Origin: Phycisphaera mikurensis
GTDB lineage: Bacteria > Planctomycetota > Phycisphaerae > WQYP01
Length of the DNA stretch: 59,029 bases
Reading direction: 5' to 3'
Assembly: GCA_022730455.1 (NCBI GenBank)
Contig: DZDI01000002.1
Span: forward strand, 1 to 59,029
Shown here: in pieces, positions 69 through 35,395 of the stretch
How the letters are laid out: each line of letters starts with the position of its first letter
Numbering within the stretch: position 1 is the stretch's first letter
Position numbers and translations under genes: made by a program
Notes under the pieces: model-generated
What the model was told of the DNA's origin: nothing
The model's input: only the letters and a program-made list of their open reading frames with translations
Databases searched by the model: none

Positions 69-692
69 CTAAATTGGGCTCCTTGCCAAATGCCGAAGGA
101 CCATCGCCTGGGCCTCTCTGAAGTCGCCTTTCATCGCCGCTGCCATCGCGGCGCCGTAGGCTGGACCACGGGGGCGAAGGCGTATCCGAACCTGTGGGTT
201 CACCCCGGCCCTGCGAAGTGCAAACGCCCAGATGATCCGCGAAATCCGGCCGTTACCGTTTAGGAATGGGTGTATTTGCACAAACCTCCCGATCAAAATA
301 CCGATCACGGTTGCGGCATTGATCGATCGCTCGCTGGCGCTATAGGCGTGCCATTCTCGAGAGAGGGCCAACCATTCACGATTGAAGTCCGAACACAGCC
401 TTTCAACATCAGGAATGACGGTCGCGTGGTCGGAGCCGCGTAATCCACCCACTTCAACATCAACGGCGAGGCAGGGTATGGTGGGGGCGCTTTGCCGGAA
501 ATTTCCAGCGTAATAGTTTACAGGTACCACCGAACTAAAAACCGTACGGTGCCAGTCACGGCAGCCTTCCGGGGTGATGGGTTGGTCGGCGCCAGCGCAA
601 TTCATGGCGTTTCTATAGGCGACAGCCGCGTCGCTCCTCGAACTCCCTCCTCGTGACGATGGGGCGTCGTGCGACCAGTCAGGACAAGTCAT
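69..692 (-). CDS. Fic/DOC family protein (putative AMPylating toxin)
   Basis: ORF 69..875 carries the Fic core motif HPFLNGNGRISR. I placed the start at the internal ATG at 692 (MTCPDW...), which overlaps the stop of the upstream ORF by 14 nt. Starts as far up as 875 are possible. Confidence 0.75.
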   Translation of the reverse strand: MTCPDWSHDAPSSRGGSSRSDAAVAYRNAMNCAGADQPITPEGCRDWHRTVFSSVVPVNYYAGNFRQSAPTIPCLAVDVEVGGLRGSDHATVIPDVERLCSDFNREWLALSREWHAYSASERSINAATVIGILIGRFVQIHPFLNGNGRISRIIWAFALRRAGVNPQVRIRLRPRGPAYGAAMAAAMKGDFREAQAMVLRHLARSPI

Positions 693-1071
693 CACTAAGC
701 CATTCCTCATCGTCCTCCACCAGTTGCTCGATGATATCATCCGGCAGCGGTTCGCCATTGGGTACCAACCGGGCAGATTTGAAGTGCTCGCCTGCTTTGG
801 CGGCCAAAGCATCAAAATTTTCACCTTGCGACCTGAGATATTCTCTGAGTGCGGCTTCCGCTCCCTTATAGTCAATTGGCGCGGAGGCAGTCAGAACGGG
901 CTCCAGCCCCCGGTACGGTGCCCATTTCAATTCCTCGATAACGGTTCTGCCGAAAAGCGATCCCGCCGGGCCCTCGTCTACGACTTCCCCGGAAGGGTTA
1001 GGGGTACTACGCGAGGAATCAAATGGCGCCACGATTGCGGGTGGTGATGGGTGTGCATACACCGGCGTCAT
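679..1071 (-). CDS. Hypothetical 130-aa protein with acidic C-terminus (candidate antitoxin/adaptor of the Fic protein)
   Basis: The ORF overlaps the upstream gene by 4 nt (ATGA at 1068-1071) and the Fic gene by 14 nt. Its C-terminus is DDIIEQLVEDDEEWLSDDLS. I recognise no domain. Confidence 0.5.
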   Translation of the reverse strand: MTPVYAHPSPPAIVAPFDSSRSTPNPSGEVVDEGPAGSLFGRTVIEELKWAPYRGLEPVLTASAPIDYKGAEAALREYLRSQGENFDALAAKAGEHFKSARLVPNGEPLPDDIIEQLVEDDEEWLSDDLS

Positions 1072-1820
1072 GAAATAATCTCCCGAATCTTATCCGTAAT
1101 GGAATTTTCAAAGAACTCATTTTCTCGGTCATGGAGATGAGCAAGCGATTTCATCAATTCCTCCACAGGCAACGGCCCCGGCCGCACTACGTCAATGTCT
1201 AAGATGATTGGCAATTTATCGCCCCCGGTGAACGGTGGCATGGACTGGACAAATATGACGAAAGCACCTGTGTCGGCCAATGGAATCTGCAGTCGCATGT
1301 CGTAGGCCAGCAAACCACCAGGTAGCCCGTCGCCGATGGTTGGAAGCGTGTTAAAGTATTCCCTAAAGTTCACCACCGGCAGCGGTAACAGAATTCGGTT
1401 GGTGTACCGGACTCCTATTCTCTTAATACCCGCCACAGTCACAACGGTCGTGTACCATTTCCAAATCTCCAGAAATTGCTGTTTGAGAGATTCCCAGCTT
1501 TCGTAGGGTGCCCCTCGGCTCACCGTCAAGCCATCCTGCCTGACCTGCATTCCCGAAGGGGCCGATCTGCTTCGCCGAAAATAACCCACCTGGACGGGAT
1601 GGTAGCTGGCTGTTGATCGTGCCCCCAGTGAAATATTGGCCGTGCCCGACACCACGGGGTTACTCTCGGGGTAGCGGTCGCGAATTTCCTGCGGCGGGGC
1701 TGCGAGGAGGGCCATATCCGAAAGCGCAGATGACTCCACTTGCACGTCGATTATGGCGCTTTCGATCGGGGCATTTCTGTAGATTCGCTTTTCTGTCAAC
1801 AGCGGTCCTTCCAGCACCAA
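1068..1820 (-). CDS. TIGR04255-family uncharacterised protein
   Basis: 250 aa. The N-terminal NAPIESAIIDVQV and central IGVRYTNRI resemble the TIGR04255 signature (N-A-P-[IL]-x-E-A ... G-x-R-Y-x-N). It has the same length class as the paralogous ORF at 23378. Confidence 0.65.
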   Translation of the reverse strand: MVLEGPLLTEKRIYRNAPIESAIIDVQVESSALSDMALLAAPPQEIRDRYPESNPVVSGTANISLGARSTASYHPVQVGYFRRSRSAPSGMQVRQDGLTVSRGAPYESWESLKQQFLEIWKWYTTVVTVAGIKRIGVRYTNRILLPLPVVNFREYFNTLPTIGDGLPGGLLAYDMRLQIPLADTGAFVIFVQSMPPFTGGDKLPIILDIDVVRPGPLPVEELMKSLAHLHDRENEFFENSITDKIREIIS

Positions 1821-18545: not shown

Positions 18546-18598
18546 ATGGGCCCGATTTGCCCATTTAAGACGTCATAGATATACTACGGTGCTCGGTT

Positions 18599-18671
18599 GC
18601 CCTCATCGTCTAGAGGCCTAGGACACGGGCTTTTCACGCCTGTAACTGGGGTTCGAATCCCCATGAGGGCA
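18599..18671 (+). tRNA. tRNA-Glu (anticodon UUC)
   Basis: Cloverleaf: acceptor GCCCTCA/TGAGGGC, D arm GTCT..GGAC, anticodon stem CGGGC/GCCTG with loop TTTTCAC, T arm TGGGG-TTCGAAT-CCCCA, discriminator A. Confidence 0.92.
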
Positions 18672-18743
18672 TATGGATCGGCGGCCGGCAGTGGCACGCT
18701 GGTAACGTTTTAGGCGGTTGGCTAGATTTAGGATCATTTTTTA

Positions 18744-20460: not shown

Positions 20461-20666
20461 CCAATCCTCGCGGATAAACCGCGAGGCTCGCCCTCGTCCA
20501 CTGCAATGGCAATCCGCACCCACAAAACAGCGAGCCGGGCAAGTATCGTCGACGCCAGCCGACCGGATCTGCATTCCTCCCCGCGAGCCGGGCAGTTGAA
20601 CGGAATCGCAAGTCGCCAGCCACCCCGCGAGCCGGGCAGTTTATCTGCCCGGTCTCCCCGAACGCG
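20461..20666 (-). repeat. Family E composite repeat, copy 1 (inverted relative to copies 2 and 3)
   Basis: The reverse complement aligns with 25036-25253 and 23041-23130. Hairpins: CCTCGCGG-ATAAA-CCGCGAGG (20466-20486) and CCGGGCAG-TTTAT-CTGCCCGG (20632-20652). CGAGCCGGGCA occurs three times. Confidence 0.85.
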
Positions 20667-22585: not shown

Positions 22586-22948
22586 ATGTCAAGTGCTGCC
22601 GACGTATCGCCCGTGCCGAGTGGTGCGCCAAGTAACGAAGATAAAAACATGGCCATTGTCATTTGGATACTCGGCTTGTTCATTGGCATCTGGATGAGCT
22701 TGATCTTCTATCTGCTGAAAAAGAGTGAGGGCGGATGGATTACCGATGTTGTCCGCGAGGCATTGAATTTTCAGATATCATTTTTAATATATTTTGCGGT
22801 GAGCATTGTGCTTATCTTTGTCGTCATTGGCGTCATTATCGCCCCTGTGGTCGGAATTTTGTTTATCGTTTTCTCAATCATGGGTGCGGTGAAATGTTCG
22901 TCCGGCCAGGTGTACCGTTGCCCGCTTGCCATCCGCATGCTTAAGTAG
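22586..22948 (+). CDS. DUF4870-family small membrane protein
   Basis: EALNFQISFLIYF...VFSIMGAVKCSSGQVYRCPLAIRMLK matches the DUF4870 pattern. GGGGAGG RBS before the ATG at 22586. Confidence 0.75.
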   Translation: MSSAADVSPVPSGAPSNEDKNMAIVIWILGLFIGIWMSLIFYLLKKSEGGWITDVVREALNFQISFLIYFAVSIVLIFVVIGVIIAPVVGILFIVFSIMGAVKCSSGQVYRCPLAIRMLK

Positions 22949-22957
22949 CGGGGGCCC

Positions 22958-23192
22958 GCCGGTTTCCCATGCGCGCCGCCGAGTTTATCTCGGCGGGTTC
23001 GGCAGGAGACCGGTGCGCGGTGCGGGGGCTGGCGCGCGTTCGGAGAGACCGGGCAGATAAACTGCCCGGCTCGCTGGGTGGAGTGCAGATCGGGTCGGAT
23101 GGCGTCGGCGATGCCTCGTACCTGCGAGCCGCGCCGGTTTCCCATGCGAGCCACCGAGTTTATCCCAGCGGATTCGGCAGGAGACTGGTGCT
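22958..23192 (+). repeat. Family E composite repeat, copy 2 (about 1.3 tandem units of ~175 nt)
   Basis: GCCGGTTTCCCATGCG begins both at 22958 and at 23133. Hairpins: CCGCCGAG-TTTAT-CTCGGCGG (22976-22996) and CCGGGCAG-ATAAA-CTGCCCGG (23049-23069). Confidence 0.85.
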
Positions 23193-23344
23193 ATAAAGAG
23201 AGGCGGTGCCGCGGGCGTTTTATTAGCGCTCGGCTTGCCGGTGGTTGGCACCGTAAATGGTCCAGAATGTTCAAAACGCCGAGAGACCGGAGCACACCGC
23301 GCCGGTGCGGCTGTGCGCATTTAATGGCCTGCGTACTATCGCCA

Positions 23345-23353
23345 TGGTACAAT
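23345..23353 (+). promoter_or_regulatory. Candidate extended -10 element (TGgTACAAT)
   Basis: TGGTACAAT lies ~25 nt upstream of the ATG at 23378 (GAGGA RBS). The -35 is weak. Confidence 0.3.
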
Positions 23354-23377
23354 CTAAGGCGCTGCTGAGGACTGATT

Positions 23378-24139
23378 ATGAATTTGCCACCAAATGAACG
23401 AATTCCCATTCGTCTGGGCAAGGAGCCTCTGGTTGAAGCCGTCTGGGAGCTCCGTTTTGACGGCGAGGAGTCGGTTGGCAGCGCTTTGCCGGGAATCCTT
23501 TACGAAAAATACCATAGAGAAAATCCGGATTTGAAGGTTCAGGCATTACCTTTGGTGAGGATGCCGGGAGAGGTTCGATCCCTCCAACCATCCTTCCGAT
23601 ACATGCCCATGCACTCACTGAAGTTTGGAAATTTTGTGGTCTTTACGGGAGACCATGTGGTGGCGTTAAGCGTGTCGGCACCCTACCCCGGCTGGAGCTG
23701 CTATTGCGAGGCTATTTGCCGACTTGCGCATTGGATGAAGGAATCAGGCTTGGTTCGCACGCCCACGCAATTCAGCCTTCGATATACCGATTTTTTTGAG
23801 GGCGACCGGCAAATCTTGGGCAATTTCAGGTTGGCGCTGAAGGCGGGCTCGTACGAACCATCGGAAGATGGCTTTCAACTACAGATGGGAATAAAGGTGG
23901 ACGGTATGGCGGGCGCAGTGCAGATGGCGTTTCCGGCACAGATGACGCATCAAGACAGCCGTATCCGCATTGGCTTGGTGACCCACGTGCAGGCAAATTG
24001 GACGGCTGCCTCCGCAACCACCTTCTGGGCCCAATACGAGGCATCTCTTGGCGTGGCCAAGGCCGCCTGCCACAAAGTGTTTTTTAACCTCCTTACCGAT
24101 GAGGCTATTAAGGCAATGGACCCCGTTTACGGAGCATGA
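23378..24139 (+). CDS. TIGR04255-family uncharacterised protein
   Basis: 253 aa. N-terminal KEPLVEAVWELRF and central FSLRYTDFF follow the TIGR04255 pattern. It is a paralogue, by architecture, of ORF 1068..1820. Confidence 0.65.
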   Translation: MNLPPNERIPIRLGKEPLVEAVWELRFDGEESVGSALPGILYEKYHRENPDLKVQALPLVRMPGEVRSLQPSFRYMPMHSLKFGNFVVFTGDHVVALSVSAPYPGWSCYCEAICRLAHWMKESGLVRTPTQFSLRYTDFFEGDRQILGNFRLALKAGSYEPSEDGFQLQMGIKVDGMAGAVQMAFPAQMTHQDSRIRIGLVTHVQANWTAASATTFWAQYEASLGVAKAACHKVFFNLLTDEAIKAMDPVYGA

Positions 24140-24143
24140 ATAA

Positions 24144-24566
24144 ATGTTTGGCTATCCAATACACTTGAGCCAGAACAAGATCGTTCATCTCGGCGGCGAT
24201 ATCACCTCGGGCTCATCGTCGCTCATCCTTGGGGGACTGGCAACGACTAAACCCGCGGAAAATACCGTGTCCGAGGGGCGGCTGACGATACGCCCATACG
24301 CCCTGATATCGGGAATATCCGCGCAGAACGTCAGGGCGCCCACCGCGGGGCTTCCCAGCCAATTTCAGGAGGCCGGTGCGAGTGACGTAGCCGGCAACCA
24401 CACGGGTACGCAAGCCCATTCGGCATGGGAATATGAGCCCAAAACCGAACTGGGCCGTAAACTCCGAGACATCCGCCAGCGGGCCATCGCTGATGGATTG
24501 CAGTTGCTCTCTCCGGACGAAATCGCGGCCGAGGTGCAGGATCGGCGTTATGGTCGGGATGCCTGA
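24144..24566 (+). CDS. Hypothetical protein, antitoxin-like C-terminus (putative partner of the PIN protein)
   Basis: GGAG RBS. The C-terminal ELGRKLRDIRQRAIADGLQLLSPDEIAAEVQDRR resembles small antitoxins that pair with PIN toxins. Its stop overlaps the PIN start (TGATG). The N-terminal ~90 aa are low complexity, so the true start may be internal. Confidence 0.5.
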   Translation: MFGYPIHLSQNKIVHLGGDITSGSSSLILGGLATTKPAENTVSEGRLTIRPYALISGISAQNVRAPTAGLPSQFQEAGASDVAGNHTGTQAHSAWEYEPKTELGRKLRDIRQRAIADGLQLLSPDEIAAEVQDRRYGRDA

Positions 24567-24979
24567 TGCCAGCGGCTACGCGGACTTACCTTGATACCGG
24601 CGTCCTCATCGCTGCATGGATGGGCAACCACCCGGTGGGTGCCAAATCCCGCGCCCTTTTGGATAGCACAGGACGGGTCTATATCCACAGCTTCTTTCTT
24701 GAACTGGAACTTTTTCCGAAGCCTATTTTTAATAAGTTCTACAACGAAATCGAGTTTTACCGGGCGGCCCTTGGCGGGTTTGAACGCGTGACAATTACCC
24801 AAACCGGTCTTGAAAAGATGGCGTTGAAAATTGCCGGGAAGTATGGCCTTGCCGCCATGGACGCGATCCACATTGCTGCGGCCATTGAGGGCAAAGCAGA
24901 GGAGTTCATCACCACGGAAAAGAGCGGTAAGCCGATCTGCCGCGTCACCGAAATAAGTGTCACATCCCTCTGGGCGTAG
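24566..24979 (+). CDS. PIN-domain ribonuclease (VapC-like toxin)
   Basis: YLDTGVLIA (first Asp), ELELFP (Glu) and AAMDAIHIAAA (third acidic residue). 137 aa. Confidence 0.8.
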   Translation: MPAATRTYLDTGVLIAAWMGNHPVGAKSRALLDSTGRVYIHSFFLELELFPKPIFNKFYNEIEFYRAALGGFERVTITQTGLEKMALKIAGKYGLAAMDAIHIAAAIEGKAEEFITTEKSGKPICRVTEISVTSLWA

Positions 24980-25035
24980 TCCGGCAGGGAACGCACGTTT
25001 TGGACAATCTGGGATAGCCTCGCGCAATGCGGGAC

Positions 25036-25253
25036 GGCCCGGCTCGCGGGGCGGAGTGCAGATCGGGCCGGATGGCGTCGGCGATGCCTCGTACCTGCGA
25101 GCCGCGCCGGTTTCCCATGCGAGCCGCCGATTTTATCTCGGCGGTTTCGGCAGGAGACCGGTGCGGGGGCTGGTGCGCGTTCGGGGAACCGGGCAGATAA
25201 ACTGCCCGGCTCGCGGGATGGCTGGCGACCTGCGATTGCGTTCACCTGCCCGG
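25036..25253 (+). repeat. Family E composite repeat, copy 3
   Basis: Circularly permuted relative to copy 2. It starts and ends with CCCGGCTCGCGGG. Hairpins at 25124-25144 and at 25189-25209 (CCGGGCAG-ATAAA-CTGCCCGG). Confidence 0.85.
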
Positions 25254-25286
25254 ATCGCTTAGGGACGGCATACGGCAGGCTTTGCC

Positions 25287-26300
25287 TCACACACTTCGCG
25301 GGTGCGCCTTTTCGTACGCTTCCTGCAGGCGTTTGGTGGTCAGGTGTGTGTACACCTGCGTGGTGCTGAGGCTTTGGTGGCCCAGTAGTTCCTGAACGGC
25401 CCGCAGGTCCGCACCATGGTTGAGCATGTGCGTGGCAAAACTGTGCCGCAGCGTGTGCGGGCTGATGTCTGGGTCTAAATGTGCCTCAATGAGGTATTTG
25501 TCCAGCTTGCGGCGTACCGATCGGGTGCTGAGCCGCTGGCCGTGTTTGTTGATGAACAGCGGCAATTCCGCTTCTGTATCGCTGACGATATTCTGCCGCA
25601 ATGCCAGATATTTCCGCACGGCCGTCAAGGCGGTTGGACTAATGGGGCTGATGCGTTCCTTTTTGCCTTTGCCCCGCACCTTTAATATGCCAGTATTAAA
25701 GTCCACATCCATCCGATTGAGTCCCACCAGTTCGCTTACCCGCAGGCCGGTGGAGTAAATAACTTCCAGCATAGCCTTGTCGCGGGCGCCGAGCAGATCG
25801 GTATCCTTGGGCGTGTTGAGCAGCGTGGTGACCTGTTCTTCCGTCATGAATTTCGGCAGGCGCTTATCCAGTTTGGGCGTGCGGATGACCTGCATGGGGT
25901 TGTTGTCCGTCAGGCCGCGCTTATTGAGAAACTTGAAAAAGCTTCGCAGCGTCGCCAATTTGCGGGCCACGGTCGCCTTGGAATAATTGTGGTCGCGCAT
26001 GTGCTGCAGGTATCGGCGCACATCGTCGGTACTGGCGTTGACCAGATGCGATTCAATTTGCTCCAGGCTCGGCCCGGGCTGCTGGGCCGCCGCGGCCGCG
26101 GCAGCCTGCATCTGTGCGTGTACAGCGCGTGACTGCGCATTGACAATGGATGGTGGCAAATCAGGCAGTCCGGCAAGATAGTTGCCAAATTGTCTCAGAT
26201 CAGCACCGTAACATTTACTCGTGTAGGTGGAAAAGTGCCTTTCATATTGTAAGTAGTCGAGGAACTCGTTGACTTTTTTGGGAAGCGGAGCGTATTCCAT
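25287..26300 (-). CDS. Tyrosine site-specific recombinase, XerC/XerD family
   Basis: N-terminal SAM-like domain (FLDYLQYERHFSTYTSKCYGADLRQF). Catalytic region: STGLRVSEL ... HTLRHSFATHML ... LLGHQSLSTTQVYTH. It has an Ala/Gln-rich insert in the N-terminal domain. Confidence 0.9.
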   Translation of the reverse strand: MEYAPLPKKVNEFLDYLQYERHFSTYTSKCYGADLRQFGNYLAGLPDLPPSIVNAQSRAVHAQMQAAAAAAAQQPGPSLEQIESHLVNASTDDVRRYLQHMRDHNYSKATVARKLATLRSFFKFLNKRGLTDNNPMQVIRTPKLDKRLPKFMTEEQVTTLLNTPKDTDLLGARDKAMLEVIYSTGLRVSELVGLNRMDVDFNTGILKVRGKGKKERISPISPTALTAVRKYLALRQNIVSDTEAELPLFINKHGQRLSTRSVRRKLDKYLIEAHLDPDISPHTLRHSFATHMLNHGADLRAVQELLGHQSLSTTQVYTHLTTKRLQEAYEKAHPRSV

Positions 26301-26605: not shown

Positions 26606-28156
26606 TTATGCACCCATTCGGTCGGCACGGGATGCAAAGTGAATTTTCGCCTCGCCCACCAGATAGAACGATCCGGTGACCGTTATCAAATCTTCGCGGG
26701 TGATGGCACGTGATGCGATGGCCATGGCCGACGCGAAATTCGGTGCCACCTGCGCCATGCGCCCAAAGCGTTCAGTAAAGTGGGCGGCAAGCTCATCGGG
26801 ACTCGCCGCCTTAGGGTTGGAGCCAGCTTGGGTAAAGATAACTTTATCGGCACCGTGCGACACCCGTTCCAGCATGCCGTCGATATCTTTGTCGCAATTG
26901 CATCCAAATATGACCACTAGGGAGTCATACGGGATGTATTGGCTGATGCCGCGAAACAGCGCCTGCATGGATGCCGCATTGTGCGCTCCGTCCAAAATTA
27001 CCCGCGGATCGCGCCACACCATTTCCATCCGCCCCTCGATGGATAGGTCCTTTACGCCCTCCAGAGCCCGAGCTTCTTCAATTTTGAAACCGCGCTGTTT
27101 TAATTGATCTAAAATTGCCAGCGCCAACCCAAAATTAATGGCCTGGTGCTCACCGATCAGTGGTACCACAAGCTGCTCAAACCGCGAAATGGAAGAATGC
27201 AGGGTAGCTCGGATGTGCGGCCCCAATGGCCGGGTGATTTCAAACCGATAGCTAAACTCGACATCTTCACCGACCACTTCCAGCTTGGCGCCGTTCGTTA
27301 CTGCAACGCGGCGAATGGCATCCAGCACGCTTGGCGGCTGCACCACGGTTAACGCCGGGATGTCACGCTTGAAAATGCCGGCTTTTTCTTCGCCAATCTT
27401 TTCCAGCGTACTGCCCAAAATCGCCGTGTGGTCATAGCTGATGCTGGTGACGGCTGCGACCTCGGGGGTAATGACATTAGTGGAGTCCAGCCGCCCACCG
27501 AGGCCGACTTCAATAATCGCAATATTCACCTCGTGCTGGGCGAAATGGCAGAAACCGATGGCGGTGATAATTTCAAAAAAGGTTGGCTTATCCGACCCCA
27601 TCTTAGCGATGGCCTGTTCTACACGTTTCACCCAATGAGTCATCTCATTCGGGGCGATCATGCCGCCATTAATTTGAATGCGCTCACGCATATCAACCAG
27701 ATGTGGGCTGGTATACAGACCCACCTTATATCCGCACGATTGGAGCATGGCCGCGACCATATAACAGGTGCTGCCTTTACCCTTGGTGCCCGCAATGTGG
27801 ACGGATTTAAATTTTGTATGAGGATCACCTAAGTGCTTAAGAAGCAATCGCATACGATCTAAATTAAACGTGGTGGTATTGTATCGTACCACCCGCATGC
27901 GTTCATAGTCGGTTTGTGACAGGAGAAAGTCCAGCGATTTTCGATAGGCTCGTTCTTCGGTTGACGTTTCCGCCTTACGGGCAGGAAAATCCTGGGGTGC
28001 CAAAACACGTTTCACTGCCGCTTGCGTCGCTCGCAGGGATGCCCGTCGCAAAGTTGCACTGCCTTTAGAGTCGCTTTTTTTCCCACGCCGGACTTTAGCC
28101 GTGGCAACAGGCCTGCGAGCAGCTTTGGTATGTCGGAGCTTTTTAGCCATAACCAT
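26606..28156 (-). CDS. folC: Bifunctional folylpolyglutamate synthase / dihydrofolate synthase with basic N-terminal extension
   Basis: P-loop HIAGTKGKGST and Mur-ligase-type middle and C-terminal domains. The first ~55 aa are Lys/Arg/Ala-rich. Confidence 0.87.
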   Translation of the reverse strand: MVMAKKLRHTKAARRPVATAKVRRGKKSDSKGSATLRRASLRATQAAVKRVLAPQDFPARKAETSTEERAYRKSLDFLLSQTDYERMRVVRYNTTTFNLDRMRLLLKHLGDPHTKFKSVHIAGTKGKGSTCYMVAAMLQSCGYKVGLYTSPHLVDMRERIQINGGMIAPNEMTHWVKRVEQAIAKMGSDKPTFFEIITAIGFCHFAQHEVNIAIIEVGLGGRLDSTNVITPEVAAVTSISYDHTAILGSTLEKIGEEKAGIFKRDIPALTVVQPPSVLDAIRRVAVTNGAKLEVVGEDVEFSYRFEITRPLGPHIRATLHSSISRFEQLVVPLIGEHQAINFGLALAILDQLKQRGFKIEEARALEGVKDLSIEGRMEMVWRDPRVILDGAHNAASMQALFRGISQYIPYDSLVVIFGCNCDKDIDGMLERVSHGADKVIFTQAGSNPKAASPDELAAHFTERFGRMAQVAPNFASAMAIASRAITREDLITVTGSFYLVGEAKIHFASRADRMGA

Positions 28157-35322: not shown

Positions 35323-35395
35323 TACCCCCAACCGGATTCGAACCGGTGTATGCAGACTGAGAATCTGCTGTCCTAGGCCTCTAGACGATGGGGGC
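35323..35395 (-). tRNA. tRNA-Glu (anticodon CUC)
   Basis: The reverse complement folds as acceptor GCCCCCA/TGGGGGT, anticodon stem GCAGA/TCTGC with loop TTCTCAG, and T arm ACCGG-TTCGAAT-CCGGT. Confidence 0.9.

What the first reader, a model, noticed from the sequence alone, without database searches (positions are those of the whole stretch)
23378..24979. TIGR04255-like gene translationally coupled to an antitoxin-like gene and a PIN toxin: candidate three-component TA or defence module
Seen in the sequence: three plus-strand ORFs are packed with a 4-nt gap (24139/24144) and a TGATG stop/start overlap at 24566. They have GGAG-type RBSs and an extended -10 (TGGTACAAT, 23345-23353) in front. 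Copies of the ~175-nt family E repeat sit on both sides (22958-23192 and 25036-25253). ORF3 has the PIN acidic residues. ORF2 ends in a charged helical tail typical of PIN-partner antitoxins. ORF1 has the N-terminal PLVEAVWELRF and central LRYTDFF signatures I associate with the uncharacterised TIGR04255 family. The same gene order recurs at 69-1820 with a different toxin domain (Fic). Established knowledge: VapBC-type modules are normally two genes, and TIGR04255 has no assigned function. Inference: the TIGR04255-like protein is a toxin-agnostic third component (sensor, chaperone or regulator) of a modular TA or anti-phage system.
Basis: partly seen in the sequence, partly recalled or inferred. 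Interest (0 to 1): 0.72.

Follow-up and report, generated by a model that had tools for sequence, protein, structure and literature searches.

The report
TIGR04255-anchored three-gene toxin–antitoxin cassette
These three genes are one copy of a widespread, undescribed cassette in which an uncharacterised protein (TIGR04255) always precedes a two-part antidote gene and an interchangeable poison gene, here a PIN RNase; it looks like a new kind of three-part toxin–antitoxin or anti-phage module.

Summary
ORF1 (23378-24139) passes the NCBIfam TIGR04255 cut-off, ORF3 (24566-24979) is a PIN/VapC-like domain, and ORF2 (24144-24566) matches no family in the libraries searched. A second triplet on the minus strand (1820-69) ends in a Fic gene.

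The linkage is not chance. In two independent scans, 29 of 30 and 51 of 52 loci had two tightly packed downstream genes; only loci with an intact TIGR04255 gene and enough downstream sequence were counted. The third gene varies: four PIN subtypes, Fic, zeta toxin, DUF7689, phrog_4575 and unknowns.

The middle protein is modular. Its C-terminal helix-loop-helix tracks the toxin type. Its N-terminal, disorder-like part tracks TIGR04255. One natural recombinant (L022 vs L027) swapped only "ORF2 C-module + toxin".

Cassettes occur in temperate phages, on plasmids, inside a BREX locus and next to restriction-type helicases. Here the cassette is only 42-52% identical to relatives whose flanking xerC and folC genes are 84-91% identical.

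Best reading: a tripartite TA or defence module that works like toxin-antitoxin-chaperone systems but uses an unrelated, TBP-like-fold partner. The partner's role (stabiliser, sensor or regulator) is inferred, not shown. I found no paper on it.

The parts
23345..23353 (+). Extended -10-like element TGGTACAAT upstream of ORF1 (candidate promoter, unverified)
   Evidence: Read directly from the sequence. The sigma-70 consensus scan found no full promoter in 22900-25400.
23378..24139 (+). ORF1, 253 aa, TIGR04255 family protein. It is the constant first gene of the cassette. The predicted fold is a pseudo-two-fold alpha/beta fold with TBP-like repeat topology.
   Evidence: NCBIfam TIGR04255 at 62 bits against a cut-off of 30. 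phrog_5464 at 99.5 bits. AF2 model with pLDDT 86 and pTM 0.85. No informative Foldseek match. 1,320 clusters at 50% identity with E<=1e-3.
24144..24428 (+). ORF2 N-terminal part (residues 1-95). It is poorly conserved and predicted to be unstructured. It is the proposed TIGR04255-interacting module.
   Evidence: pLDDT below 50 with no secondary structure. It cannot be aligned even to syntenic relatives. In the main subfamily the N-module is inherited together with TIGR04255 across a toxin swap.
24429..24566 (+). ORF2 C-terminal module (residues 96-140): AWEYEP..LGRKLRDIRQRAIADGLQLLSPDEIAAEVQDRRYG. It is a helix-loop-helix and the proposed PIN-neutralising part.
   Evidence: pLDDT 90-96, with helices at 102-116 and 124-136. 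The C-module profile scores 46.9 bits, and only in loci with PIN type 1. G104, L107, R111, A114, G118, E126, E130 and R135 are invariant. The family has 336 members, all 'hypothetical'.
24566..24979 (+). ORF3, 137 aa, PIN-domain (VapC-like) putative RNase toxin. Its start overlaps the ORF2 stop (TGATG).
   Evidence: PF01850 at 40.3 bits. A profile built on ORF3 and its homologues (A5) matches VapC structures 7by2 and 5x3t. D10, D99 and T116 are nearly invariant across 31 homologues.
22957..23195 (.). Upstream copy of a dispersed ~175-nt repeat (tandem 1.3 units). It flanks the cassette but is probably not part of it.
   Evidence: Only a 30-nt piece is present at the syntenic site in relatives.
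25034..25221 (.). Downstream copy of the same repeat, in the PIN-xerC intergenic region.
   Evidence: The 131-nt core is 92% identical to 23061-23191.
1068..1820 (-). ORF1', the second TIGR04255 paralogue. It is about 15% identical to ORF1, and its start is probably at 1799.
   Evidence: TIGR04255 at 122 bits. Identity to ORF1. The database copy P0007 is 243 aa.
679..1071 (-). ORF2', 130 aa, the middle gene of the Fic triplet. It matches no family and has an acidic C-terminus. It overlaps the ORF1' stop by 4 nt.
   Evidence: It is conserved in relatives L012 and L013.
69..608 (-). Fic-domain protein carrying the HPFLNGNGRISR motif. It is the putative AMPylating toxin of the second triplet. The long ORF extends to 875, but homology begins near the ATG at 608.
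   Evidence: PF02661 at 35.1 bits. PADLOC PDC-S04 and SoFic hits. Alignment to the 183-aa L012 Fic begins at residue 94 of the long ORF.

Best explanation
The locus is a tripartite toxin-antitoxin-type module.

Proposed roles:
- ORF3 is a VapC-like PIN RNase toxin.
- ORF2 is a two-module antitoxin. Its conserved C-terminal helix-loop-helix, with invariant Arg residues, binds and blocks the PIN. Its N-terminal ~95 residues are unstructured on their own.
- ORF1 (TIGR04255) is a constant partner that binds the ORF2 N-terminal module.

Proposed mechanism: TIGR04255 stabilises or licenses the antitoxin, as the SecB-like chaperone does for the ChAD element in TAC systems. A trigger, most plausibly a phage protein or proteotoxic stress, competes for TIGR04255 or alters it. 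The antitoxin is then lost and the toxin is released, causing growth arrest or abortive infection.

The 'antitoxin C-module + toxin' pair is an exchangeable warhead. 'TIGR04255 + antitoxin N-module' is the conserved platform.

Shown: gene architecture, family memberships, near-universal triplet organisation, diversity of the third gene, the recombination breakpoint inside ORF2, fast evolution relative to flanking genes, and location on mobile elements and in defence loci.

Inferred: physical binding between ORF1 and ORF2, stabilisation, toxicity, the trigger and the anti-phage role.
For: Family assignments.

Triplet architecture. 29 of 30 genome loci and 51 of 52 metagenome loci with an intact ORF1 and at least 950 nt downstream have the triplet. 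Median ORF1-ORF2 gaps are 2 and -4 nt. The same order is found on 3 plasmids, in 3 phage genomes and on 6 of 7 IMG/VR contigs.

Third gene. PIN in 29 of 31, Fic, zeta toxin, DUF7689 in 30 of 53, and phrog_4575.

ORF2 modularity.
- The C-module profile hits only loci with PIN type 1.
- The N-module profile hits L027 at 89.7 bits, although L027 has a different C-terminus and a different PIN.
- L022 and L027 share 84% ORF1 identity. Their DNA is 82% identical through ORF1 and the first 82 ORF2 codons. Homology is lost over the ORF2 C-module and the toxin, then resumes at 92% downstream.

ORF2 structure: N-terminus pLDDT below 50, C-terminal helices pLDDT 90-96.

Conflict-system signature: xerC is 89-91% and folC 84-87% identical to relatives, against ORF1 42-49% and ORF3 50-52%. 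ORF2 is alignable only at its C-terminus.

Defence context: embedded in a BREX locus, next to ResIII or SNF2 helicases, and at moron positions in prophages.

TAC precedent for a chaperone that acts as sensor, and for swappable TA warheads: bioRxiv 10.1101/2024.02.24.581848.
Against: - No experiment or complex prediction shows that ORF1 binds ORF2, or that ORF3 is toxic.
- TIGR04255 is not SecB-like and resembles no known chaperone.
- The window's own ORF2 N-terminus does not match the N-module profile (-1.5 bits). No motif common to the middle proteins of all toxin types was found.
- Window ORF1 lacks three of the family's most conserved polar residues (R131Q, D205Q, H228K), so this copy could work differently or be degenerating.
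- ORF2 has no DNA-binding domain, which leaves operon autoregulation unexplained. TIGR04255 could fill that role instead.
- Both window copies sit among housekeeping genes, not in a defence island.
- DUF7689 and other third genes are not established toxins.
Confidence: 0.5

Rival explanations
1. TIGR04255 is the transcriptional autoregulator of a three-gene TA operon. It would be analogous to omega in omega-epsilon-zeta or PaaR2 in paaR2-paaA2-parE2, where the antitoxin lacks a DNA-binding domain and a separate first-gene product represses the promoter.
For: ORF2 and its family have no recognisable DNA-binding domain. TIGR04255 is always the first gene. Its repeat topology is TBP-like, and weak Foldseek hits include TBP and a Rep protein. 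One cassette carries a zeta toxin.
Against: The family is acidic, with a median pI of 5.6. No HTH, RHH or AbrB family hit was found. No operator-like palindrome lies upstream of ORF1. TBP matches are weak (TM 0.23-0.35, probability 0.13-0.54). The toxin swap keeps an 82-residue antitoxin N-module together with TIGR04255. That points to a protein-protein relationship, which a purely DNA-binding regulator would not need.
Confidence: 0.15
2. TIGR04255 is the infection sensor or activator that acts directly on the effector. The middle protein is an adaptor or immunity protein rather than a labile antitoxin. The module would then be a dedicated anti-phage system rather than an addiction-type TA.
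For: The cassette occurs in temperate phages, in a BREX locus and next to restriction-type helicases. It evolves very fast relative to its flanking genes. Many third genes are not classic TA toxins, for example DUF7689, phrog_4575 and unknowns. Some middle proteins have folded-looking, immunity-like C-domains.
Against: The middle gene's C-module co-varies strictly with the toxin, as antitoxins do. The window's copies are stably chromosomal among housekeeping genes. No PADLOC model hits any component except Fic.
Confidence: 0.15
3. TIGR04255 is an enzyme that modifies the toxin or antitoxin (type VII-like TA), or that makes or binds a small-molecule signal.
For: Conserved polar residues lie on the beta-sheet: E24, R26, Y103, W106, R131, Y136, D205 and H228. 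The best PDB Foldseek hits are to AdoMetDC.
Against: TM-scores are only 0.33. No enzyme family was hit. In the window's ORF1, R131, D205 and H228 are replaced by Q, Q and K, yet relatives of this clade keep the cassette intact. The paired R-to-Q and D-to-Q change looks like a lost salt bridge rather than a catalytic site.
Confidence: 0.07
4. This is an ordinary two-gene VapBC pair that merely happens to lie next to an unrelated TIGR04255 gene.
For: VapBC pairs are abundant. ORF2-ORF3 alone has the classic overlapping antitoxin-toxin layout.
Against: 80 of 82 loci from two independent scans keep the triplet. ORF1 and ORF2 are coupled, with gaps from -8 to +12 nt in nearly all loci. The 336-member ORF2 family was found only as ~120-125-aa proteins, and every locus examined had an adjacent TIGR04255 gene.
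Confidence: 0.02

Closest known systems
Toxin-antitoxin-chaperone (TAC) systems: HigBAC, CmdTAC and M. tuberculosis Rv1955-1957, with a SecB-like chaperone
   Same: Both have three genes. A constant accessory protein is combined with different TA 'warheads'. The antitoxin carries an extra, aggregation- or disorder-prone segment besides its toxin-binding part. Both are modular, as shown experimentally for TAC and by a natural warhead swap here. Both occur in defence contexts.
   Different: The accessory protein here is TIGR04255 (~250 aa, TBP-like pseudo-dimer fold), not SecB (no PF02556 hit and no SecB Foldseek hit). It is encoded first rather than last. The extra antitoxin segment is N-terminal rather than a C-terminal ChAD. 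The toxins differ (PIN, Fic, zeta, DUF7689 against HigB, MqsR, HicA, CmdT). Chaperone dependence is untested.
VapBC type II toxin-antitoxin systems
   Same: The toxin is a PIN-domain protein with the acidic residues. The upstream gene overlaps it and has a C-terminal Arg-containing helical segment. The locus is small and mobile.
   Different: ORF2 has no AbrB, RHH, Phd or HTH DNA-binding domain. An obligatory third gene precedes the pair. The PIN subfamily is only distantly related to solved VapCs (E=3e-5).
Three-component TA systems with a separate regulator (omega-epsilon-zeta; paaR2-paaA2-parE2)
   Same: The gene order is accessory, then antitoxin without a DNA-binding domain, then toxin. 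One TIGR04255 cassette carries a zeta toxin.
   Different: Omega and PaaR2 are small RHH or HTH repressors. TIGR04255 is a 250-aa acidic protein with no DNA-binding signature. The antitoxin here has an extra N-module that is co-inherited with the accessory gene.
Panacea (PanA, DUF4065) hyperpromiscuous antitoxin domain and the NetFlax combinatorial TA network
   Same: One conserved component is combined with many unrelated toxin families. Both are found in phages and defence contexts.
   Different: Panacea is a domain within the antitoxin of two-gene systems. Here the promiscuous element is a separate protein plus an adaptor segment of the antitoxin. There is no sequence relationship (no Pfam hit).
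Fic/Doc toxin-antitoxin modules (VbhT/VbhA, FicT/FicA), for the second triplet
   Same: The Fic domain has an intact HxFx(D/E/N)GNGRxxR-type motif (HPFLNGNGRISR) and follows a small upstream gene.
   Different: By eye, the upstream 130-aa protein lacks a clear (S/T)xxxE(G/N) inhibitory motif. It is separated from Fic by 70 nt and is itself preceded by, and overlapped with, a TIGR04255 gene.

Membership tests
NCBIfam TIGR04255 (sporadTIGR04255) | Full-length HMM score at or above the curated cut-off (30 bits) | tested here: met
   ORF1 scores 62 bits over model positions 2-251 of 252. ORF1' scores 122 bits.
PIN domain / VapC toxins | Pfam PF01850 score at or above the gathering threshold (23.6 bits) | tested here: met
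   40.3 bits over residues 8-117. The profile of homologues hits VapC structures 7by2 and 5x3t.
PIN domain / VapC toxins | Conserved acidic active-site residues: Asp in beta1, Glu in alpha2, Asp before alpha5, and a C-terminal acidic residue | tested here: met
   D10, E48/E50, D99 and E118 align with the VapC positions. D10, D99 and T116 are nearly invariant in 31 homologues.
PIN domain / VapC toxins | Mg2+/Mn2+-dependent RNase activity and toxicity | not testable with these tools
   Needs expression and cleavage assays.
Canonical type II VapBC | Antitoxin with an N-terminal DNA-binding domain (AbrB, RHH, Phd/YefM or HTH) that autoregulates a two-gene operon | tested here: not met
   ORF2 has no Pfam, NCBIfam or PDB hit. 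The AF2 model shows an unstructured N-terminal 95 residues. The operon has three genes.
Canonical type II VapBC | The antitoxin gene lies immediately upstream of the toxin gene and overlaps it; its C-terminal part is toxin-specific | tested here: met
   TGATG overlap. The C-module profile co-occurs only with PIN type 1.
TAC (toxin-antitoxin-chaperone) | The third component is a SecB-like chaperone (PF02556 / SecB fold) | tested here: not met
   No Pfam hit for ORF1 or ORF1'. SecB is absent from the Foldseek PDB matches.
TAC (toxin-antitoxin-chaperone) | The antitoxin carries a dedicated extension (ChAD) recognised by the accessory protein | tested here: inconclusive
   An extra, disorder-like N-terminal module exists and is co-inherited with TIGR04255. 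It is N-terminal, and binding is not shown.
TAC (toxin-antitoxin-chaperone) | The accessory protein combines with unrelated TA warheads | tested here: met
   Four PIN subtypes, Fic, zeta, DUF7689, phrog_4575 and others. Natural warhead swap between L022 and L027.
TAC (toxin-antitoxin-chaperone) | Antitoxin stability and toxin neutralisation depend on the accessory protein | not testable with these tools
   Needs co-expression and stability assays.
omega-epsilon-zeta / PaaR2-type three-component TA | The first gene encodes a small RHH or HTH repressor | tested here: not met
   No DNA-binding family hit. Family median pI is 5.6. No upstream palindrome was found.
Fic/Doc family (second triplet) | Pfam PF02661 at or above 24 bits and the HxFx(D/E/N)GNGRxxR motif | tested here: met
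   35.1 bits. HPFLNGNGRISR is present in the translation.
Catalogued anti-phage defence systems (PADLOC-DB v2.0.0) | HMM hit of the components to a known or candidate system | tested here: not met
   No hit for ORF1, ORF2, ORF3, ORF1' or ORF2', nor for the phage and plasmid homologues. Only the Fic protein hits PDC-S04 and SoFic.

The most novel reading that the evidence does not exclude
TIGR04255 proteins define a large (at least 1,300 clusters at 50% identity) and so far unrecognised class of tripartite conflict systems. In this reading, a TBP-like-fold protein is a universal sensor or stabiliser platform. It is coupled through a disordered adaptor segment of the antitoxin to freely exchangeable effector-plus-immunity 'warheads': PIN, Fic, zeta, a DUF7689 putative Cys/His hydrolase, phrog_4575 and others. 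This would be a second, SecB-independent invention of the toxin-antitoxin-chaperone logic, used by bacteria, plasmids and temperate phages for abortive-infection defence. It would also expose several new toxin families.
Probability: 0.4. Interest if true: 0.85.

Novelty: new variant of a known kind. Interest (0 to 1): 0.72.

Why it matters
If correct, a family that has been annotated for years only as 'TIGR04255 family protein' gains a testable function. Its members are spread across many bacterial phyla, plasmids and phages.

It adds a second, structurally unrelated example of the accessory-protein-controlled TA design known from SecB-type TAC systems. It offers natural, pre-mapped module boundaries for engineering hybrid systems, because the L022/L027 breakpoint lies inside ORF2.

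It also flags several uncharacterised third-gene families as candidate new toxins or effectors: DUF7689, phrog_4575 and about 125-aa unknowns. Their middle-gene partners become candidate immunity proteins.

For this genome, it explains two fast-evolving three-gene islands embedded between highly conserved housekeeping genes.

Tried and rejected
I narrowed to motif-sharing subsets (A4, A11, A12). Each survey is therefore biased towards one TIGR04255 subfamily.

2. Foldseek of the ORF1 model against PDB and BFVD gave only weak matches. These were AdoMetDC (TM 0.33), TBP (TM 0.23-0.35) and unnamed viral proteins. No functional inference was drawn beyond the repeat topology.

3. I looked for a motif shared by the N-termini of all middle proteins; by eye this was 'P-x4-RST' or 'APFD'. 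The N-module profile scored L028 at 6.1 bits, no better than the best of 1,350 shuffled sequences (6.2 bits), and scored every other type below 1.3 bits. I rejected the motif as unsupported.

4. The 255-aa 'antitoxin-PIN fusion' in L045 is an ORF-calling artefact. The real ORF2 lies in another frame, followed by a type 2 PIN.

5. The flanking repeats are not cassette termini or evidence of a mobile element. Syntenic relatives hold the same cassette with only a 30-nt piece of the repeat.

6. The xerC-like neighbour is not a phage integrase marking an island. It is 89-91% identical across relatives, so it behaves as a housekeeping gene.

7. Searches for an operator palindrome and a sigma-70 promoter upstream of ORF1 found nothing.

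8. Literature searches returned no paper for 'TIGR04255' or 'DUF7689'. Searches on tripartite TA systems found nothing describing this architecture.

9. Rfam and tRNA scans found nothing in or near the cassette.
Full report
**1. Observation**

The three plus-strand ORFs are present exactly as described:
- ORF1, 23378-24139, 253 aa
- ORF2, 24144-24566, 140 aa
- ORF3, 24566-24979, 137 aa

The sequence shows a 4-nt ORF1/ORF2 gap, a TGATG stop/start overlap between ORF2 and ORF3, a GAGGA 6 nt upstream of the ORF1 ATG, and TGGTACAAT at 23345-23353. A sigma-70 consensus scan found no complete promoter, so the promoter remains a suggestion.

A 131-nt core repeat (92% identical) brackets the cassette at 22957-23195 and 25034-25221. 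A further partial copy lies at 20545-20666.

The second triplet is real but lies on the minus strand: 1068-1820, 679-1071, and a Fic ORF. Homology to relatives places the Fic start near the ATG at 608, which leaves a 70-nt gap after the middle gene.

**2. Family assignments**

- ORF1 passes the curated TIGR04255 cut-off (62 bits against 30, full length). ORF1' scores 122 bits. The two paralogues are only about 15% identical.
- ORF3 is a PIN domain (PF01850, 40.3 bits). It aligns with VapC structures and has acidic residues at the expected positions.
- The left-hand third gene is Fic (PF02661) with an intact HPFLNGNGRISR motif.
- Neither middle protein matches anything in Pfam, NCBIfam, PADLOC, PHROGs or PDB sequences.
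- ORF1 matches phrog_5464, a phage family of unknown function.
- No paper in the searchable library contains 'TIGR04255'.

**3. Is the linkage more than chance?**

*Close relatives.* Relatives of ORF1 at 42-49% identity carry the same TIGR04255 / ~140 aa / PIN triplet at the same chromosomal site, next to xerC and a folC/Mur-ligase gene. Relatives of ORF1' carry TIGR04255 / ~130 aa / Fic.

*Genome survey.* A scan of one genome per species returned 41 loci from Planctomycetota, Thermodesulfobacteriota, Synergistota, Chloroflexota, Nitrospirota, Acidobacteriota, Lentisphaerota and Armatimonadota. Of 30 loci with an intact ORF1 and at least 950 nt downstream, 29 have two close, co-oriented ORFs, with a median ORF1-ORF2 gap of 2 nt. 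29 of 31 third genes hit PIN.

*Metagenome survey.* A scan seeded on the ORF1' subfamily returned 80 loci. Of 52 informative loci, 51 have the triplet, with a median ORF1-ORF2 overlap of 4 nt. In this set 30 of 53 third genes are Pfam DUF7689 and the rest have no Pfam family.

*Annotated records and viral contigs:*
- a Vibrio plasmid with TIGR04255 / hypothetical / zeta toxin
- a Crinalium plasmid and a Thermus megaplasmid
- Pseudomonas phages Dobby and VW-6S, Sulfurimonas phage SNW-1 and seven IMG/VR contigs; most end in a ~199-aa phrog_4575 protein

*Family size.* The family has about 1,320 clusters at 50% identity with E<=1e-3.

Chance adjacency is excluded. The TIGR04255 gene is combined with many unrelated third genes.

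**4. Anatomy of the middle protein**

The PIN-type ORF2 family has 336 members. The 120 best-scoring hits listed are mostly ~120-125 aa (range 104-137 aa), and the few that carry a name are 'hypothetical'. It has a strongly conserved C-terminus, F.PRT.LG.KL..LR..AI..G..LLS.DEVLEEV.RRRGE.

For the window's ORF2, AlphaFold2 predicts residues 1-95 without secondary structure (pLDDT below 50). Residues 102-136 form a confident helix-loop-helix (pLDDT 90-96).

I split the family alignment into N- and C-module profiles and scored them against middle proteins from all cassette types, with 1,350 shuffled controls.
- The C-module profile hits only the proteins paired with PIN type 1: the window's ORF2 (46.9 bits), L001, L005, L008, L017 and L019.
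- The N-module profile hits L027 at 89.7 bits, although L027 has an unrelated C-terminus and a different PIN.

The L022/L027 comparison makes this concrete:
- ORF1 is 84% identical at the protein level.
- The DNA is 82% identical through ORF1 and the first 82 codons of ORF2.
- Homology then vanishes across the rest of ORF2 and the toxin gene.
- It resumes at 92% identity downstream.

This is a natural swap of 'antitoxin C-module + toxin' with its breakpoint inside ORF2. The C-module therefore belongs functionally to the toxin, and the N-module to TIGR04255.

Other PIN subtypes likewise come with their own ORF2 C-termini: L016, L018, L028 and L045 form one group, and L047, L050 and L051 another. 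In the DUF7689 set the middle proteins have effector-specific C-domains behind variable N-termini.

**5. The TIGR04255 protein**

The AF2 model is confident (pLDDT 86, pTM 0.85). It shows two beta-alpha-beta4-alpha repeats, which is TBP-like topology.

Foldseek finds only weak similarities in the PDB (AdoMetDC at TM 0.33, TBP at TM 0.23-0.35) and in BFVD. A family profile finds no solved relative.

The family is acidic, with a median pI of 5.6. Conserved positions include E24, R26, PYPGW (102-106), R131, Y136, D205, H228 and F235.

The window's ORF1 has Q131, Q205 and K228, whereas ORF1' keeps R, D and H. The paired R-to-Q and D-to-Q change looks more like a lost salt bridge than a lost catalytic site. 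It also means this copy is atypical.

**6. Context and evolution**

*Defence and mobile contexts elsewhere:*
- inside a BREX locus in Desulfacinum infernum DSM 9756, between a 728-aa gene and pglZ/brxL
- directly upstream of ResIII helicases in four loci, and of an SNF2/DUF3670 helicase in one
- next to the portal gene in phage Dobby and downstream of cI in phage VW-6S, on the same strand

*The window's copies.* Both sit among housekeeping genes. Against syntenic relatives, XerC is 89-91% and FolC 84-87% identical. ORF1 is only 42-49% and ORF3 50-52% identical, and ORF2 is alignable only over its C-terminal 45-56 residues.

So the cassette either diverges far faster than its neighbours or is repeatedly replaced at the same site. 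Either behaviour is typical of conflict systems.

L022 and L027 come from MAGs assigned to different phyla yet share 82-92% DNA identity. This indicates recent horizontal transfer or a binning error.

**7. Mechanism**

I commit to a TAC-like model.
- ORF3 is the toxin.
- The ORF2 C-terminal helix-loop-helix neutralises it. By analogy with VapB and FitA, Arg residues would reach the acidic pocket; this analogy rests on established knowledge and was not tested here.
- TIGR04255 binds the otherwise unstructured ORF2 N-module and so controls antitoxin stability or availability.
- A trigger acting on TIGR04255 releases the toxin.

In SecB-type TAC systems the chaperone recognises the antitoxin's ChAD element. 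A phage protein competes for the chaperone, and chaperone and warhead can be recombined experimentally (bioRxiv 10.1101/2024.02.24.581848).

The architecture, modularity, context and evolutionary rate are shown. Binding, stabilisation, toxicity and the trigger are inferred.

Rivals:
- TIGR04255 as an omega- or PaaR2-like autoregulator, since ORF2 lacks a DNA-binding domain
- TIGR04255 as a direct sensor or activator, with the middle protein acting as immunity protein or adaptor
- TIGR04255 as a modifying enzyme

The acidic pI, the absence of DNA-binding signatures, the absence of an operator palindrome and the co-inheritance of the N-module argue against a pure regulator. None of these points is decisive.

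**8. Comparison and novelty**

The module works most like TAC but fails TAC's defining membership feature, a SecB-like chaperone. It also differs in gene order and in where the antitoxin extension sits.

It contains a VapC-like toxin but is not a canonical VapBC pair: the antitoxin has no DNA-binding domain and the operon has three genes. No component apart from Fic matches PADLOC v2.

Literature searches found nothing on TIGR04255, DUF7689 or this architecture.

I rate it a new variant of a known kind: a tripartite, accessory-protein-controlled TA or defence module.

**9. Limits**

- Each survey was seeded on a conserved peptide motif and therefore samples one subfamily at a time.
- ORF calling in the loci was mechanical.
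- No multimer prediction or experiment was possible.
- The library searches do not cover subscription-only literature.

Noticed in passing
window 22957-23195, 25034-25221 and 20545-20666 (minus orientation): A dispersed ~175-nt GC-rich repeat containing an internal 20-nt inverted repeat (80% complementary). It has at least three sites in this window, and two of them bracket the cassette. Syntenic relatives carry only a 30-nt piece. It may be a lineage-specific REP- or MITE-like element.
   Followed up: partly
L022:531-2483 vs L027:1507-3516: MAGs labelled Thermodesulfobacteriota and 'Anaerolinea thermophila' share 82-92% DNA identity across the cassette flanks but carry different 'antitoxin C-module + PIN' inserts. 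This indicates recent inter-phylum transfer (or a binning error) together with a clean warhead swap.
   Followed up: yes
L075:3481-3906 and 29 other loci among L074-L153: Pfam DUF7689 proteins (~140-160 aa; motifs YNCxAWA, PTHAARQ, DIEH) are the commonest third gene after one TIGR04255 subfamily. The motifs suggest a Cys/His hydrolase. No literature or PDB relative was found.
   Followed up: partly
L060:2187-2786 (Pseudomonas phage Dobby gp03); L061:4548-5144; L066-L068; L071: A ~199-aa protein family (phrog_4575, unknown function; conserved LSNSCDI and FKLSIHFCR motifs) is the third gene of TIGR04255 cassettes in temperate Pseudomonas phages. It is a candidate new toxin or effector.
   Followed up: partly
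L063:3716-5245 (Desulfacinum infernum DSM 9756, FQVB01000062.1): A canonical TIGR04255 / 123-aa / PIN triplet sits inside a BREX locus, between a 728-aa gene and pglZ/brxL. This is a cultured strain and would suit experiments.
   Followed up: no
window 23378-24139 (ORF1 residues 131, 205, 228): The window's ORF1 replaces three of the family's most conserved polar residues (R131Q, D205Q, H228K). Position 205 is also Q in its three closest relatives (P0003, P0005, P0015); position 131 is Q in two of them and H in P0015. Other members, including ORF1' in the same window, mostly keep R, D and H. The paired R/D to Q/Q change suggests a salt bridge.
   Followed up: partly
window 25287-26300 (-) and 26606-28156 (-): The xerC-like recombinase and the folC/Mur-ligase gene next to the cassette are 84-91% identical to relatives in which the cassette genes are only 42-52% identical. 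The xerC-proximal site may be a hotspot for cassette turnover.
   Followed up: partly
L014:2734-4385; L118, L122, L132, L135, L149-L153: This is another cassette type. The middle proteins carry a conserved WDGY...PEI..EP.GEIGLEW domain, paired with ~125-aa third proteins that have no Pfam family. One example has cyanobacterial-looking neighbours.
   Followed up: no
window 18598-18672 (+) and 35323-35395 (-): Two tRNA-Glu genes (anticodons TTC and CTC) are the only Rfam or ARAGORN hits in the window. Neither is near the cassette.
   Followed up: no
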